Shown here: one piece after another, positions 4,518 through 32,445 of the stretch | How the letters are laid out: every line of letters starts with the position of its first letter | Position numbering within the stretch: position 1 is the stretch's first letter | Assembly: GCF_050920415.1 (NCBI RefSeq) | Contig: NZ_CP169309.1 | Length of the DNA: 64,000 bases | Origin: Escherichia coli | Lineage (GTDB): Bacteria > Pseudomonadota > Gammaproteobacteria > Enterobacterales > Enterobacteriaceae | Strand: one strand, 5' to 3' | Notes under the pieces: generated by a model | What the model was told of the DNA's origin: nothing | The model's database searches: none | What the model saw: only the letters and a program-made list of their open reading frames with translations | Position numbers and translations under genes: made by a program

Positions 4518-4693
4518 AAAATTCCTTTTAAAATCATAACATAAAAGAATGATTCACATTAACGGATCCGTTAACTACGAAAATAGGCAACTTATTCTTA
4601 AGGGGCAAGATTAATTTATGTTTTCCCGTCACTAACGACAAAATTTGCGAGGCTCTTTCCGAAAATAGGGTTGATCTTTGTCGTCACTGGATG

Positions 4694-4713
4694 TACTGTA
4701 CATCCATACAGTA
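4694..4713 (+). promoter_or_regulatory. LexA operator (SOS box) of sulA
   Basis: tactgtacatccatacagta: CTGT-N8-ACAG palindrome 23 bp upstream of the sulA ATG. Confidence 0.85.
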
Positions 4714-4735
4714 ACTCACAGGGGCTGGATTGATT

Positions 4736-5245
4736 ATGTACACTTCAGGCTATGCACATCGTTCTTCGTCGTTCTCATCCGCAGCAAGTAAAATTGCGCG
4801 TGTCTCTACGGAAAACACTACAGCCGGGCTTATCAGTGAAGTTGTCTATCGCGAAGATCAGCCCATGATGACGCAACTTCTACTGTTGCCATTGTTACAG
4901 CAACTCGGTCAGCAATCGCGCTGGCAACTCTGGTTAACACCGCAACAAAAACTGAGTCGGGAATGGGTACAGGCATCTGGGCTACCCTTAACGAAAGTGA
5001 TGCAGATTAGCCAGCTCTCCCCTTGCCACACTGTGGAGTCAATGGTTCGCGCTTTACGCACGGGCAATTACAGTGTGGTGATCGGTTGGTTGGCAGATGA
5101 TTTGACTGAAGAAGAGCATGCTGAACTTGTTGATGCGGCAAATGAAGGTAACGCTATGGGGTTTATTATGCGTCCGGTAAGCGCATCCTCTCACGCAACG
5201 AGACAACTTTCCGGGCTAAAAATTCACTCTAATTTGTATCATTAA
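4736..5245 (+). CDS. sulA: SOS cell-division inhibitor SulA
   Basis: ORF track starts at a TTG (4730); ATG at 4736 gives 169-aa [13 protein letters not shown]..., recognised as SulA. Confidence 0.9.
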
Positions 5246-15715: not shown

Positions 15716-17824
15716 TCAGGCTGCGGTAATCAGCCAGCAGTTGTGGATCTGGCGGTTACGGGCGAAATCCTGGGAGAGCGTTTTTTGCGTAATTTCTTGT
15801 GCTTTCAGCCCCAGTTTTGCCAGTCCGTCAAGATCCATTCGGAAGCCACGTTTGTTGTTCGAGAACATGATCGTCCCACCAGCACGCAGCAGACGTTTCA
15901 AATCTTTCATCAGCGCCAGATGATCGCGCTGAACATCAAACGCATCTTCCATTCGTTTTGAGTTAGAGAAGGTTGGCGGATCGATAAAGATCAGATCGAA
16001 CTGTTCATTTGCCTCACGCAGCCACGCCAGGCAATCGGCCTGAATCAGGCGATGCGCACGCCCGGTTAGGCCATTCAGACGCAGGTTGCGTTCTGCCCAC
16101 TCCAGATAAGTACGCGACATATCCACGGTGGTAGTGCTGCGTGCACCGCCTAATCCCGCGTGCACGGTGGCGCTCCCGGTATAAGAGAACAGGTTGAGGA
16201 AATCTTTGCCTTTGCTCATCTGACCGAGCATACGACGGGCGATACGGTGATCGAGGAACAGACCGGTATCGAGGTAATCCGTCAGGTTCACCCACAAGTG
16301 AGCGTTATATTCGGTGACTTCGAGAAACTCGCCCTTCTCGCCCAGTTTCTGGTACTGATTTTTGCCCTTCTGGCGTTCACGGGTTTTCAGCACCAGTTTG
16401 TTTGGCGCAATCCCCAGTACAGAAATGGTTGCAGCGATAATATCGAACAGACGCTGACGCGCTTTGTGCGCATCAATCGTTTTTGGCGGTGCATACTCCT
16501 GCACCACCACCCAGTCGGCATAACGGTCAACGGCAACGTTATACTCCGGCAGATCGGCATCATACAGGCGATAACATTCAATCCCTTCCTGACGTGCCCA
16601 CTTCTCGAATTTTTTGAGGTTCTTACGCAGGCGGTTGGCGTAGTCTTCCGCTACCATTGCCGGTTTGCTGTCTGGTGTGCTTTCGGCAACGTGATAATTT
16701 TTCTGTACGCAGTCCAGCGGGCCGTTTTTCGCCTTGTACTGTTTGTCTGCACGCAGCTGCAGGCAGCTTAGCAGATCCGGCGAGGCACTAAACAAAGAGA
16801 GATTCCAGCCACCGAACTGGTTTTTCATGATTCGGCCCAGCAGGCTATGCAGTGCAATCAGCGCCGGTTCGCTGTCCAGACGTTCACCGTATGGCGGGTT
16901 GCTCAACACTGTACCGTACGGCCCTTTCGGCAGCGGATTGGTCAGTTGCGCAACATCTTTCACCTCAAAGGTAATCAGTTCACCAATCCCCGCAAGACGT
17001 GCGTTAGTGCGCGCACGTTGAATCACCCGGGCGTCGCTGTCCGAACCGTAAAAATGAGAGCTATACTCTGCCAGTCCTTTACGGGCGCGAGCTTGCGCTT
17101 CCGCTTTCACTTCCTGCCAGATAGCTTCATCATGCTGCGCCCAGCCGCTAAAGCCCCAACGCCCACGGTGCAAGCCTGGTGCGCGATCGGTCGCCAGCAT
17201 CGCCGCTTCAATCAGCAACGTACCAGAACCACACATTGGATCGAGCAGCGGTGTTCCCGGCTGCCAGCCGGATCGCATCACAATCGCGGCTGCCAGTGTT
17301 TCTTTGATCGGCGCAATACCAGCACGATCGCGATAGCCACGCAGATGTAAACCATCACCACTGAGATCAAGGGCGATACTGGCAGTTTCTTTATGCAGCC
17401 AGACGTTAACGCGGATATCCGGCGCATCGCGATCAACATTTGGACGCGGCAAATTTTTCCGCGTGAAAGCATCGACGATCGCGTCTTTCACTTTCATCGC
17501 GCCGTACTGGCTGTTGCGAATGGTGTCATTTAAACCACTGAAATGGACAGCGAAGGTCGCGCCAGGATTAAACATCTCTGTCCAGTTGATCGCCTGAACG
17601 CCGAGATAGAGGTCTAAATCACTGTAAACCTTACACTCGCCCAGCGGCAACATAATACGCGAGGCCAGGCGGCTCCACATCAGGCTCTGGTAAACAAGCC
17701 GTGTGTCGCCCTTAAAATGGACCCCACCCTGAACCACCTGGCATTCAACGGCCCCCAGGTTTTCCAGTTCAGTTTTTAACAGCTCTTCCAGCCCACGGGC
17801 CGTACTGGCAAACAGAGAATTCAT
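15716..17824 (-). CDS. rlmL: bifunctional 23S rRNA methyltransferase RlmKL (m2G2445/m7G2069)
   Basis: 702-aa ORF recognised as RlmL (YcbY); stop lies 11 bp upstream of the uup start. Confidence 0.9.
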
Positions 17825-17921
17825 ATCGTCACTTTTACTCTAAGAAAATTGTTGCGCATTATAGCTAATAAGCGCGTCATGTCATAAAGTTGAGGGCTTA
17901 TTTTCATTTGAGGACCGCACC

Positions 17922-19031
17922 GTGGCGACATTAACCCGGCTTTTTATTCATCCTGTTAAATCGATGCGCGGCATTGGTCTTACACATGCTCTGGCAGATG
18001 TCAGTGGTCTGGCCTTCGATCGCATCTTTATGATCACGGAACTTGACGGTACGTTTATTACCGCTCGCCAGTTTCCCCAGATGGTACGGTTTACTCCTTC
18101 ACCTGTGCATGATGGCTTGCATCTCACCGCACCAGATGGCAGTAGCGCATATGTTCGTTTTGCTGATTTCGCCACACAAGACGCACCAACCGAAGTTTGG
18201 GGCACACATTTTACCGCGCGAATTGCGCCAGACTCGATCAACAAATGGTTAAGTGGATTTTTCTCCCGCGAAGTGCAATTGCGCTGGGTGGGGCCACAAA
18301 TGACCCGGCGCGTGAAACGCCACAACACTGTACCTCTGTCATTTGCTGATGGCTATCCTTACCTTCTTGCTAACGAAGCCTCGTTACGTGATCTCCAACA
18401 ACGTTGTCCGGCCAGTGTAAAAATGGAGCAATTCCGCCCCAATCTGGTGGTTTCCGGCGCGTCAGCCTGGGAAGAAGATAGCTGGAAAGTGATTCGTATT
18501 GGTGATGTGGTGTTTGATGTGGTTAAACCTTGTAGCCGCTGTATTTTCACCACCGTCAGTCCAGAAAAAGGGCAAAAACATCCGGCAGGCGAACCATTAA
18601 AAACATTGCAATCTTTCCGTACTGCCCAGGATAACGGCGATGTCGATTTTGGTCAGAATTTAATTGCCCGTAATAGCGGCGTGATTCGCGTTGGCGATGA
18701 GGTGGAAATTCTGGCAACGGCTCCGGCTAAAATTTACGGCGCAGCTGCCGCTGATGATACCGTCAACATCACGCAACAACCGGACGCAAATGTAGATATT
18801 GACTGGCAGGGACTGGCATTTCGTGGAAATAACCAACAGGTGCTGCTGGAGCAATTAGAAAATCAGGGAATTCGTATCCCTTATTCTTGCCGCGCGGGCA
18901 TTTGTGGAAGCTGCCGTGTTCAGCTTTTAGAAGGCGAAGTCACACCGCTCAAAAAATCAGCAATCAGCAATGATGGCACCATTCTTTGCTGTAGTTGTGT
19001 GCCGAAGACTGCGCTTAAACTAGCGCGTTAA
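17922..19031 (+). CDS. ycbX: MOSC-domain 2Fe-2S protein YcbX
   Basis: 369 aa with GTG start; C-terminal CRAGICGSC...C ferredoxin-like cysteine motif. Confidence 0.9.
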
Positions 19032-19570
19032 ACTGCCTGTTCGAGGCTGAAACTGTCAACATTAACCTGCGGTTTCAGCCTGTCATTCATGATTTTGATG
19101 GCGTCCCCCAACTGCATCGCGCGACCCGCAATAACAACGCAGGGTTGCGCCAACAGGCACAGTGCAGCATTTTCGCCAGATTCAACGACCAGCAAATTGA
19201 CTTGCTCGTGAGTGTCGCTCAACCAAACGCAGGCCGCATCGCCCGGCATGGGCACCCACATTTCACCATGGGAAACAAAATGCCAGCTTTTCGGCATTTG
19301 CGGTTTGAGATAACGAATTGCTACCAGCGCATTAAGCACCAGTTCGGCTTTTTGTTCTTTAGATAAATTAAAATCGCGGCATTTTTCTTCAAATGAGAAA
19401 TAGAGCGCGGCGTCGTCAACGCAAAAGCCTGCGGGAGAAAAGGCATCTGGAGTCAACATTTTGCGCGCAAAACGTGAGCGAAATAGCATACCATTGGCTA
19501 AATCGAGCATCATTCGATCGTGCTCTTCATCGTAATACCAACGCCAGTTATCGTCTGGTTTAATTCGCAT
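19028..19570 (-). CDS. zapC: Z-ring associated protein ZapC
   Basis: 180 aa from [24 protein letters not shown]...; ORF-track start at 19606 is an extension. Confidence 0.9.
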
Positions 19571-19743
19571 TTGCCTCTCCCCTACCCTATAAAACCGCAG
19601 CAACACAATCCATTGTCGCTTCGCTTAATAACCTCAACAATAAAAGTACAAAATGTCTAAATAAGCAACAGCGATGAATATAAAACAACCAGGGCTTAAA
19701 ATAAAGCCCTGATTATCTTATAAAGAGAAATTCAAAGAAATAA

Positions 19744-20754
19744 TTAGATATGGTTAACGATTTCTTTAATCAGCGGCGGTCCTTTAAAAATAAAACCAGA
19801 ATAAATTTGCACCAGTGAGGCCCCCGCAGCAATCTTTTCACGCGCAGCGATAACCGAGTCAATGCCGCCAACACCGATGATCGGTAAGCGACCGTTTAAT
19901 TCCTGAGACAAACGGCGAATAATTTCGGTGCTTTTTAACTGTAGCGGACGACCACTTAAGCCCCCAGTTTGATCGCAATTTTTCATACCCTGTACCAAAG
20001 AACGATCGAGCGTGGTATTGGTTGCAATAACGCCATCAATATTATGGCGAACTAAACTATCGGCAACCTGGATCAATTCTTCTTCAGAAAGATCCGGCGC
20101 GATCTTCACTGCGATCGGCACATATTTATGGTGCATCGCTTGCAAATCATTTTGCTTATTTTTAATCGCGGTTAAGAGATCATCCAGCGCTTCGCCATAT
20201 TGCAGTGTGCGTAGTCCTGGGGTATTCGGCGATGAAATATTGATGGCGATATATCCCGCATAAGCATAGATTTTTTCCATACAAATCAGATAGTCATCTT
20301 TACCCTGCTCCACCGGCGTATCTTTATTTTTGCCGATGTTAATACCCAGGACGCCATCATAATGGGCTTTTTTTACGTTCTCTACGAGGTTATCAACGCC
20401 AAGATTATTAAAGCCCATACGGTTGATCAAACCTTCGGCATCTACCAGACGAAAGAGACGCGGCTTGTCATTACCTGGCTGTGGACGTGGCGTGACGGTA
20501 CCGATCTCGATAGATCCAAACCCCATCGCGCCTAACGCGTCAATGCACTCCCCGTCTTTATCAAGACCGGCTGCCAGACCAAGCGGATTTTTAAACGTCA
20601 GGCCCATGCAGTTAACAGGTTTCGCAGGCACTTTCTGCCGCACCAGTGCTTCAAACGGCGTTCCTGTAATACGGCGTAATTGCTGAAAAGTAAACTCATG
20701 AGCGCGCTCTGGATCGAGCTGGAAAAGGGCTTTACGAACGAAGGGGTAGTACAT
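19744..20754 (-). CDS. pyrD: dihydroorotate dehydrogenase (quinone)
   Basis: 336 aa from [21 protein letters not shown]... Confidence 0.95.
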
Positions 20755-20839
20755 GAACTCTCCTGGATTCCCGGTGTGCAAACCGGGGGCGTATTATGTG
20801 CGAGTTCGGACCAAAAGGGAATTGACCTGCGGCAAAAAA

Positions 20840-32248: not shown

Positions 32249-32445
32249 GCCGGATGTGGCGCACAAAACCAGCGGTTTCAACGGATTGTAGGCCTGATAA
32301 GACGCGTCAAGCGTCGCATCAGGCATTTGGGCACGGCTGCCGGATGCGGCGTGAACGCCTTATCCAGCCTACAAAACCAGCATTTTCAACGGACTTGTAG
32401 GCCTGATAAGACGCGTCAAGCGTCGCATCCGGCATTTGGGCTCAA
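32249..32445. repeat. REP/BIME cluster between convergent ssuB and pepN
   Basis: two near-identical ~68-bp units (32265-32332 and 32372-32441) separated by the REP-type sequence gccggatgcggcgtgaacgccttatccagcctac. Confidence 0.85.

What the first reader, a model, noticed from the sequence alone, without database searches (positions are those of the whole stretch)
17922..19031. ycbX: MOSC domain fused to a plant-type ferredoxin motif
The protein ends with [11 protein letters not shown]...C, a 2Fe-2S ferredoxin-like cysteine pattern, fused to a MOSC-type N-terminal region. That is a self-contained electron-transfer/reductase architecture. It uses a GTG start.
Basis: partly seen in the sequence, partly recalled or inferred. 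Interest (0 to 1): 0.25.

Follow-up and report, generated by a model that had tools for sequence, protein, structure and literature searches.

The report
Known E. coli ycbX reductase gene

Summary
Window 17922-19031 (+) is a 369-codon ORF with a GTG start and a TAA stop. RefSeq annotates the same coordinates as ycbX, "6-N-hydroxylaminopurine resistance protein". The protein is 98% identical to K-12 b0947, and the gene is present in 5425 of 5426 complete E. coli genomes.

Pfam finds MOSC_N (residues 1-116), MOSC (139-262) and Fer2 (297-362), all well above threshold. The cysteine pattern is C323-X4-C328-X2-C331-X25-C357. These four cysteines are invariant in 51 of 51 diverse relatives. The neighbouring C356 (6/51) and C359 (25/51) are not. 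The loop before the fourth ligand is 4 residues shorter than the canonical 29. Relatives vary from 12 to 36, and E. coli YfaE has 26, so the spacing is compatible with [2Fe-2S] ligation and the refutation test fails.

The AlphaFold model (pLDDT 91) matches human mARC1 over the N-terminal part and plant ferredoxins over the C-terminal part.

"Self-contained" is an overstatement. There is no FAD/NAD(P)H domain. Relatives of 600-660 aa carry one between MOSC and Fer2, and the literature shows that E. coli YcbX needs CysJ.

The proposed deletion test was published in 2008. Already known; low interest.

The parts
17922..19031 (+). ycbX coding sequence (369 codons plus a TAA stop)
   Evidence: ORF list. 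The RefSeq annotation maps to the same coordinates. 98% aa identity to K-12 b0947.
17910..17924 (+). Ribosome-binding site GAGGA (17910-17914), a 7-nt spacer, and the GTG start codon (17922-17924)
   Evidence: Sequence. Identical in K-12 and in MFDS1022581. No other in-frame start lies upstream.
17922..18269 (+). MOSC_N beta-barrel domain (residues 1-116)
   Evidence: Pfam PF03476, 113 bits, E 8e-33. The fold matches human mARC1.
18336..18707 (+). MOSC domain (residues 139-262), the molybdenum-cofactor catalytic domain
   Evidence: Pfam PF03473, 82 bits. PDB sequence hit to mARC1, E 1.5e-32. Foldseek hit to mARC1, E 2.5e-22.
18531..18542 (+). C204-S-R-C207 motif. C207 (codon 18540-18542) is the predicted Mo-ligand cysteine.
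   Evidence: Aligns to CSRC of mARC1. C207 is kept in 135/139 relatives. Where C204 is replaced, the rest of the motif stays intact; where C207 is lost, the motif is degraded. The single universally conserved MOSC cysteine is Cys273 in mARC1 (PMC10637980).
18708..18809 (+). Inter-domain linker (residues 263-296), too short to hold a flavin domain
   Evidence: No Pfam hit. pLDDT falls to 60-67 over residues 271-290 and below 50 at 275-278. In long relatives this position holds FAD_binding_6 and NAD_binding_1.
18810..19007 (+). Plant-type [2Fe-2S] ferredoxin domain (residues 297-362)
   Evidence: Pfam PF00111, 54 bits. PDB ferredoxin sequence hits down to E 6e-10. Foldseek hits to ferredoxins with target TM 0.65-0.73.
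18888..18992 (+). Cluster-ligand cysteines C323 (18888-18890), C328 (18903-18905), C331 (18912-18914) and C357 (18990-18992): C-X4-C-X2-C-X25-C
   Evidence: Positions. All four are invariant in 51/51 diverse relatives, against C356 at 6/51 and C359 at 25/51. HMMER aligns C357 to the fourth ligand of solved ferredoxins, with a 4-residue deletion in the loop before it.
17825..17921 (.). 97-bp divergent intergenic region between rlmL (minus strand) and ycbX. It should contain the ycbX promoter.
   Evidence: ORF coordinates. A promoter-like site was found only on the minus strand, 17885->17858, 11 of 12 matches, facing rlmL. No consensus sigma-70 match was found for ycbX itself. A sigma-S study lists the K-12 intergenic region as 'including ycbX promoter' and reports weak rpoS dependence (PMC3141248).

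Best explanation
The feature is the chromosomal E. coli gene ycbX. It encodes a three-domain cytoplasmic molybdoenzyme: MOSC_N beta-barrel, MOSC catalytic domain and C-terminal plant-type [2Fe-2S] ferredoxin domain.

Mechanism:
1. NADPH reduces the flavins of a separate protein, CysJ (from the literature).
2. CysJ passes single electrons to the [2Fe-2S] cluster held by C323, C328, C331 and C357 of the YcbX ferredoxin domain. The ligand assignment is inferred here from conservation and alignment.
3. The cluster passes the electrons to the molybdenum cofactor bound in the MOSC/MOSC_N module, whose Mo is ligated by C207. This is inferred from alignment to mARC1 Cys273 and from conservation.
4. 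Mo(IV) performs the two-electron reduction of N-hydroxylated substrates, for example 6-N-hydroxylaminopurine to adenine, and so protects the cell from their toxic and mutagenic effects (from the literature).

The ferredoxin domain plays the part that cytochrome b5 plays for eukaryotic mARC.
For: Identity:
- RefSeq annotates ycbX at the same coordinates.
- 98% aa identity to K-12 b0947, with no cysteine or motif residue changed.
- Same neighbours: rlmL, zapC, pyrD.
- Present in 5425/5426 complete E. coli genomes.

Domains:
- Pfam MOSC_N, MOSC and Fer2 all score above their curated cutoffs.
- PDB sequence hits to mARC1 (E 1.5e-32) and to plant-type ferredoxins.
- The AlphaFold model (pLDDT 91.1) matches mARC1 at E 2.5e-22 and ferredoxins at target TM 0.65-0.73.

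Ligands:
- C323, C328, C331 and C357 are invariant in 51/51 relatives; C356 and C359 are variable.
- C207 is the indispensable cysteine of the CSRC motif.

No flavin domain:
- Only three Pfam domains and a 34-residue linker.
- Long relatives carry FAD_binding_6 and NAD_binding_1 at that position.

Function and partner, from the literature:
- HAP-to-adenine reduction, CysJ as electron donor, and YcbX described as an iron-sulfur protein (PMC3831636).
- The proposed electron path CysJ -> Fe-S -> Moco (PMC5818509).
Against: Nothing found contradicts this explanation. Five caveats apply.
- The third-to-fourth ligand spacing is 25 rather than the canonical 29.
- No solved structure of YcbX itself appeared in the PDB searches, so the ligand assignment and the inter-domain electron path rest on homology.
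- The primary experimental papers (Kozmin 2008 and 2010, Kalimuthu 2022, Yang 2023) are not in the held library, so their results are taken from papers that cite them.
- This allele has 9 substitutions relative to K-12, three of them (I348, S349, N350) in the loop between the third and fourth ligands. Their effect is untested.
- A review questions whether 6-HAP-type compounds occur under physiological conditions, so the natural substrate is uncertain.
Confidence: 0.95

Rival explanations
1. One reading: YcbX is a fully self-contained reductase that needs no partner protein. It would take electrons directly from a pyridine nucleotide and pass them through its own ferredoxin domain to the Mo site.
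For: The catalytic domain and an electron-transfer domain are in one chain. Single-chain versions that include a reductase module do exist among relatives.
Against: No FAD, FMN or NAD(P)H-binding domain is detected. The MOSC-Fer2 linker is only 34 residues. Self-contained relatives need about 250 extra residues of FAD_binding_6 and NAD_binding_1 at that position. Genetic work reported in the literature identifies CysJ as the specific electron donor.
Confidence: 0.03
2. The C-terminal cysteine motif does not hold a [2Fe-2S] cluster. The shortened 25-residue loop, or a different fourth ligand (C356 or C359), would give a different metal site or a purely structural domain.
For: The spacing differs from the canonical X29. 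Three adjacent candidate cysteines (CCSC) make the fourth ligand ambiguous from this sequence alone.
Against: C357 is invariant in 51/51 relatives, while C356 (6/51) and C359 (25/51) are not. Loop length varies from 12 to 36 among relatives that keep all four cysteines. E. coli YfaE, annotated in K-12 as a ferredoxin-like protein, has C-X4-C-X2-C-X26-C. Pfam Fer2 gives E 1.4e-14. The modelled domain superposes on solved ferredoxins at about 2.9 A rmsd. The literature describes YcbX as an iron-sulfur protein with a [2Fe-2S] ferredoxin domain.
Confidence: 0.02
3. The allele in this window is an inactive or decaying copy, because it belongs to a divergent lineage with 9 amino-acid changes.
For: The allele is only about 97.7% identical at the DNA level to most E. 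coli ycbX genes, and 99% or more identical to just 4 genomes. L41 replaces a proline and L298 a glutamine that are the majority residues in Enterobacteriaceae. Some distant orthologs have lost the catalytic cysteine.
Against: The reading frame is full length with no frameshift or premature stop. Every ligand cysteine and every residue invariant in the 26-sequence alignment is retained. All three Pfam domains match over nearly their full profile length. The start codon and ribosome-binding site are intact.
Confidence: 0.02

Closest known systems
E. coli K-12 YcbX (b0947, NP_415467.1; 6-N-hydroxylaminopurine resistance protein)
   Same: Same gene. 369 aa, 360/369 residues identical, same GTG start, same three domains, same cysteines, same neighbours rlmL and zapC.
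   Different: Nine substitutions, window residue first: T5I, L41P, S105A, S187R, V281A, L298Q, I348M, S349G, N350D. K-12 also carries an extra segment of about 146 bp in the rlmL-ycbX spacer.
Human mARC1 (PDB 6FW2, 7P41), the eukaryotic MOSC_N-MOSC amidoxime reductase
   Same: Same MOSC_N plus MOSC fold and the same CSRC active-site motif. The literature reports the same type of two-electron N-reduction, including of 6-HAP.
   Different: mARC1 has no fused ferredoxin. It receives electrons from the separate proteins cytochrome b5 and NADH-cytochrome b5 reductase, and it is membrane-anchored on mitochondria. Foldseek reports 21% identity over the aligned region.
Single-chain MOSC-flavin reductase-ferredoxin proteins (Vibrio VCA0924/VPA0411 type; here P0128, P0134, P0135, P0145, P0209, P0232)
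   Same: They share MOSC_N, MOSC and a C-terminal Fer2 domain with the same four cysteines. They are 35-46% identical to the query over the matched stretches.
   Different: They carry FAD_binding_6 and NAD_binding_1 between MOSC and Fer2, so they are truly self-contained. Most have the canonical X29 loop or a longer one.
Plant-type [2Fe-2S] ferredoxins (e.g. PDB 1ROE, 1IUE, 1A70) and E. coli YfaE
   Same: Same C-X4-C-X2-C motif, a fourth cysteine in an 'IL-x-C' context, and the same fold.
   Different: Here the ferredoxin is a domain of a larger enzyme. The loop before the fourth ligand is 25 residues, against 29 in plant ferredoxins and 26 in YfaE.
E. coli YiiM (MOSC domain plus C-terminal helical bundle)
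   Same: It is the second Moco-dependent HAP-detoxifying MOSC enzyme of E. coli.
   Different: YiiM has no MOSC_N barrel and no ferredoxin domain. It is thought to use a different electron donor, Fre.

Membership tests
YcbX family (bacterial MOSC_N-MOSC-Fer2 N-reductases) | N-terminal MOSC_N beta-barrel domain | tested here: met
   PF03476, 113.2 bits against a cutoff of 25, profile positions 1-118 of 119. The fold matches mARC1.
YcbX family (bacterial MOSC_N-MOSC-Fer2 N-reductases) | MOSC domain with the universally conserved Mo-ligand cysteine | tested here: met
   PF03473, 82.2 bits against a cutoff of 22.7. C207 aligns to the second cysteine of CSRC in mARC1 and is conserved in 135/139 relatives. 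Equating it with mARC1 Cys273 relies on my recollection of the mARC1 numbering.
YcbX family (bacterial MOSC_N-MOSC-Fer2 N-reductases) | C-terminal [2Fe-2S] ferredoxin domain with four ligand cysteines | tested here: met
   PF00111, 54.2 bits against a cutoff of 21. C323, C328, C331 and C357 are invariant in 51/51 relatives.
YcbX family (bacterial MOSC_N-MOSC-Fer2 N-reductases) | Orthology to E. coli K-12 b0947 (sequence and synteny) | tested here: met
   98% aa identity. Flanked by rlmL and zapC as in K-12.
YcbX family (bacterial MOSC_N-MOSC-Fer2 N-reductases) | Binds molybdenum cofactor and reduces N-hydroxylated substrates; deletion sensitises cells to HAP | not testable with these tools
   Known for K-12 YcbX from the literature only.
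YcbX family (bacterial MOSC_N-MOSC-Fer2 N-reductases) | Dependence on CysJ as electron donor | not testable with these tools
   From the literature. The absence of a flavin domain found here is consistent with it.
Plant-type [2Fe-2S] ferredoxin (Pfam Fer2, PF00111) | C-X4-C-X2-C motif plus a distal fourth cysteine | tested here: met
   C323-X4-C328-X2-C331...C357. HMMER aligns these residues onto the cysteines of solved ferredoxins.
Plant-type [2Fe-2S] ferredoxin (Pfam Fer2, PF00111) | Canonical 29-residue spacing between the third and fourth ligands | tested here: not met
   The spacing is 25, a 4-residue deletion relative to 1ROE and 1IUE. This is not a strict family requirement: 31/51 relatives have 29, 8/51 have 25, and the range is 12-36. 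YfaE has 26.
Plant-type [2Fe-2S] ferredoxin (Pfam Fer2, PF00111) | Beta-grasp ferredoxin fold | tested here: met
   Foldseek hits to many solved ferredoxins, E about 4e-6, target TM 0.65-0.73, rmsd 2.5-3.0 A.
Single-chain MOSC-FNR-ferredoxin reductases (Vibrio VCA0924 type) | FAD_binding_6 and NAD_binding_1 domains between MOSC and Fer2 | tested here: not met
   Neither domain is found in the window protein. Both are found in six relatives of 604-664 aa.

The most novel reading that the evidence does not exclude
The short 25-residue loop defines a subgroup of unfused YcbX proteins, found in E. coli and its nearer relatives. In this reading the ferredoxin domain has adapted to a different reductase partner, CysJ, rather than to an FNR-type module. 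The ferredoxin domain may also have a role of its own. Four diverged members of this subgroup (P0124, P0138, P0146, P0149) have lost the Mo-ligand cysteine but keep all four cluster cysteines, and one of them still sits next to zapC. The three substitutions this window's allele carries inside that loop (I348, S349, N350) could then tune partner docking or cluster potential.
Probability: 0.1. Interest if true: 0.3.

Novelty: already known. Interest (0 to 1): 0.07.

Why it matters
It matters little as a discovery. YcbX, its MOSC-ferredoxin architecture, its role in resistance to N-hydroxylated base analogues and its CysJ dependence were published from 2008 onward, and NCBI names the gene routinely.

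This check adds three things:
- an explicit ligand assignment (C323, C328, C331, C357 for the cluster and C207 for Mo), backed by conservation across diverse relatives;
- the observation that the E. coli-type ferredoxin domain has a loop 4 residues shorter than the canonical one;
- a correction of the 'self-contained' reading.

No solved YcbX structure appeared in the PDB copy searched, so the inter-domain electron path is still modelled rather than observed. A review also questions whether HAP-type compounds occur physiologically, so the natural substrate remains uncertain.

Tried and rejected
- Alternative start codons. There is none upstream in frame. ATG at codon 15 would delete conserved MOSC_N residues, so it was rejected.
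- C356 or C359 as the fourth cluster ligand. Rejected on conservation: 6/51 and 25/51, against 51/51 for C357.
- C204 as the Mo ligand. Less likely than C207, because C204 can be replaced with the motif otherwise intact, whereas loss of C207 goes with a degraded motif.
- Antisense and overlapping ORFs inside ycbX, for example the 126-aa ORF on the minus strand at 17948-18328. Treated as by-products of the coding frame and not pursued.
- Known RNA families in the gene. Rfam finds nothing in or next to ycbX.
- Primary papers (PMC2740630, PMC2849459, PMC10544827, doi 10.1016/j.bbabio.2022.148579). None is held, so their results are cited only through papers that quote them.
- Measuring Cys-Cys and cluster-to-Mo distances in the AlphaFold model. 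The coordinates are not exposed to the script environment.
- A sigma-70 promoter for ycbX. The consensus scan finds none on the + strand in the 97-bp spacer. The only strong site faces rlmL.

Full report
**Observation**

The window holds an ORF at 17922..19031 on the + strand. It has 369 codons, a GTG start and a TAA stop. The nearest upstream in-frame stop is TAG at 17862, and no ATG, GTG or TTG lies in frame between it and the GTG. A GAGGA Shine-Dalgarno sequence sits at 17910-17914, 7 nt before the GTG.

The next in-frame start, ATG at codon 15, would remove residues 2-14. Three results argue against it:
- these residues match the Pfam MOSC_N profile from position 1;
- they align to 'GTVAQLWIYPVKS' of human mARC1;
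- they include P11 (135/139) and K13 (133/139), near-invariant in diverse relatives.

RefSeq annotates the same start and end in strain MFDS1022581. K-12 b0947 is annotated as a CDS of the same length, and the GTG context is identical in K-12. Its cysteines are at residues 323, 328, 331, 356, 357 and 359.

**Identity**

The DNA matches 5425 of 5426 complete E. coli genomes at one place per genome (median). The match is annotated everywhere as ycbX, '6-N-hydroxylaminopurine resistance protein YcbX'. It is flanked by rlmL/rlmKL (divergent) and zapC (convergent), followed by pyrD. The protein is 360/369 identical to K-12 YcbX, and none of the nine differences touches a cysteine or a motif residue.

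**Domains**

Pfam gives MOSC_N at residues 1-116 (113 bits), MOSC at 139-262 (82 bits) and Fer2 at 297-362 (54 bits, E 1.4e-14). All three are far above the curated cutoffs.

NCBIfam places the C-terminal domain closest to the YfaE and plant-type ferredoxin models, below their whole-protein cutoffs, as expected for a single domain. Against the PDB by sequence, residues 2-265 hit human mARC1 (E 1.5e-32) and residues about 300-367 hit several dozen plant-type ferredoxins.

An AlphaFold2 model built on a 26-sequence alignment is confident, with mean pLDDT 91.1 and pTM 0.76. Confidence is low only in the linker around residues 271-290. Foldseek matches the model to mARC1 structures (E 2.5e-22, query TM 0.67) and then to plant-type ferredoxins (target TM 0.65-0.73, rmsd about 2.9 A). 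No solved structure of YcbX itself turned up.

The pattern is C323-X4-C328-X2-C331, followed by three candidate fourth ligands in 'ILCCSC'.

HMMER alignments to solved ferredoxins place C357 on their fourth ligand, with a 4-residue deletion in the preceding loop. I took the best 150 representatives of 50%-identity clusters, extracted the 50 that carry a C-X4-C-X2-C motif, and aligned them with the query.
- C323, C328, C331 and C357 are cysteine in 51 of 51 sequences.
- C356 is cysteine in 6 of 51 and is usually alanine.
- C359 is cysteine in 25 of 51.
- The third-to-fourth spacing is the canonical 29 in 31 sequences and 25 in 8 sequences, namely the query and its nearer relatives, all of the unfused type or fragments. 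Otherwise it ranges from 12 to 36.

E. coli YfaE, annotated in K-12 as a ferredoxin-like radical-maintenance protein, aligns with one gap and has a spacing of 26. The spacing is therefore compatible with [2Fe-2S] ligation, and the ligand set is C323, C328, C331 and C357.

**Molybdenum site**

The MOSC domain contains C204-S-R-C207, which aligns to CSRC of mARC1. In 139 aligned relatives, C204 is kept in 134 and C207 in 135.

The exceptions are informative. Four sequences replace C204 with S or I but keep 'R-C-x-x-T-T' intact. The four that lack C207 have a visibly degraded motif. C207 is thus the indispensable cysteine. This fits the single universally conserved MOSC cysteine that ligates Mo, Cys273 in mARC1 (PMC10637980). 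Equating C207 with Cys273 by residue number relies on my recollection of the mARC1 numbering. The alignment and the conservation do not depend on it.

**How it works**

The literature reports the following.
- YcbX and YiiM are the two Moco-dependent activities that reduce 6-N-hydroxylaminopurine to adenine. Their loss makes E. coli hypersensitive to N-hydroxylated base analogues. CysJ is the specific electron donor for YcbX (PMC3831636).
[quoted passage not shown] X-ray absorption data fit a Mo site with dithiolene, one cysteine and two oxygen ligands (PMC10637980).
- The proposed electron path is NADPH -> CysJ flavins -> Fe-S cluster -> Moco -> substrate (PMC5818509).

The domain and ligand evidence obtained here is fully consistent with that scheme. 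The identity, domains, conserved ligands and fold were shown here. The cofactor content, activity and CysJ dependence come from the literature. The ligand assignment and the intramolecular electron path are inferred.

**'Self-contained'**

The protein has no flavin or NAD(P)H domain, and the MOSC-Fer2 linker is only 34 residues long.

The 150 representatives fall into three length classes:
- about 335-427 aa, with the Fer2 motif, like this protein;
- about 574-690 aa, with the Fer2 motif;
- about 257-298 aa, covering only query residues 1 to about 270.

Pfam scans of a sample show that six of the long forms carry FAD_binding_6 and NAD_binding_1 between MOSC and Fer2. Two of the short forms carry only MOSC_N and MOSC. 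The long forms are the truly self-contained version, and the literature describes them for Vibrio.

**Novelty**

None for the finding itself.

**Things noticed in passing**

1. The stop codons of ycbX and zapC overlap, with a 4-bp overlap of the annotated CDSs at 19028-19031. No terminator can lie between the genes. An RNA-seq study lists zapC-ycbX as a convergent excludon.
2. K-12 carries about 146 bp more in the rlmL-ycbX spacer than this window (243 bp against 97 bp). About 77% of complete genomes (4191/5425) have that insert.
3. This allele is 99% or more identical to only 3-4 genomes and about 96-98% identical to the rest.
4. Four diverged YcbX relatives of the short-loop subgroup lack the Mo-ligand cysteine but keep all four cluster cysteines. 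One of them still abuts zapC.
5. Rfam finds the PyrD leader at 20749-20822 (-) and naRNA4 at 32291-32369 (-).

Noticed in passing
window 19028-19031 (ycbX stop TAA at 19029-19031; zapC stop on the minus strand at 19028-19030): The convergent genes ycbX and zapC overlap by 4 bp at their stop codons, so no intergenic terminator can separate them and their transcripts must overlap. An RNA-seq study (PMC12288877) lists zapC-ycbX among convergent 'excludons'. In a distant relative (L003) the two genes still abut directly (6146/6147).
   Followed up: partly
window 17825-17921, compared with L002 (K-12) 4602-4844: The rlmL-ycbX divergent spacer is 97 bp here and in strain MFDS1022581, but 243 bp in K-12. 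K-12 has an extra segment of about 146 bp just upstream of the rlmL start codon. A probe spanning the insert is covered to at least 80% in 4191 of 5425 complete genomes, with a median of one place per genome. It is therefore a common presence/absence polymorphism, not a high-copy repeat at this stringency. The nature of the insert was not determined.
   Followed up: partly
window 17700-19250: This stretch is 99% or more identical to only 3-4 of 5425 complete E. coli genomes (best: strain MFDS1022581 at 99.9%) and 95-99% identical to all the others, typically about 97.7%. This suggests the window comes from an uncommon E. coli lineage, or that the locus is unusually diverged.
   Followed up: partly
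P0124, P0138, P0146, P0149; L003 5001-6146: Four diverged YcbX relatives (34-45% identity over the matched stretches, on unnamed metagenome or read-archive contigs) lack the Mo-ligand cysteine equivalent to C207 and have a degraded CSRC motif. They retain all four ferredoxin cluster cysteines and the short 25-residue loop. P0138 still lies convergent to zapC, and its MOSC Pfam hit is only 'weak'. They could be decaying enzymes or a repurposed ferredoxin domain.
   Followed up: partly
window 17885-17858 (minus strand): A strong sigma-70-like promoter match (ATGACA, 16-nt spacer, TATAAT; 11 of 12) faces rlmL. No comparable match for ycbX was found on the + strand of the spacer. A sigma-S profiling paper reports weak rpoS dependence of ycbX (PMC3141248).
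   Followed up: partly
window 20749-20822 (-) and 32291-32369 (-): Rfam matches above gathering score: the PyrD leader upstream of pyrD (97.9 bits) and the nucleoid-associated RNA naRNA4/CssrE (82.2 bits).
   Followed up: no
P0259 (630 aa) and P0234 (486 aa), relatives: Unusual architectures among MOSC relatives. P0259 has two MOSC and two MOSC_N matches in one chain. P0234 has MOSC_N-MOSC followed by a weak GNAT acetyltransferase match.
   Followed up: no
window 17600-19800: The simple terminator scan finds 10 hairpin-plus-T-run sites, against 3.5 +/- 2.0 expected from shuffles. Most lie inside coding sequence. One (19690-19711, + strand) lies between zapC and pyrD.
   Followed up: no
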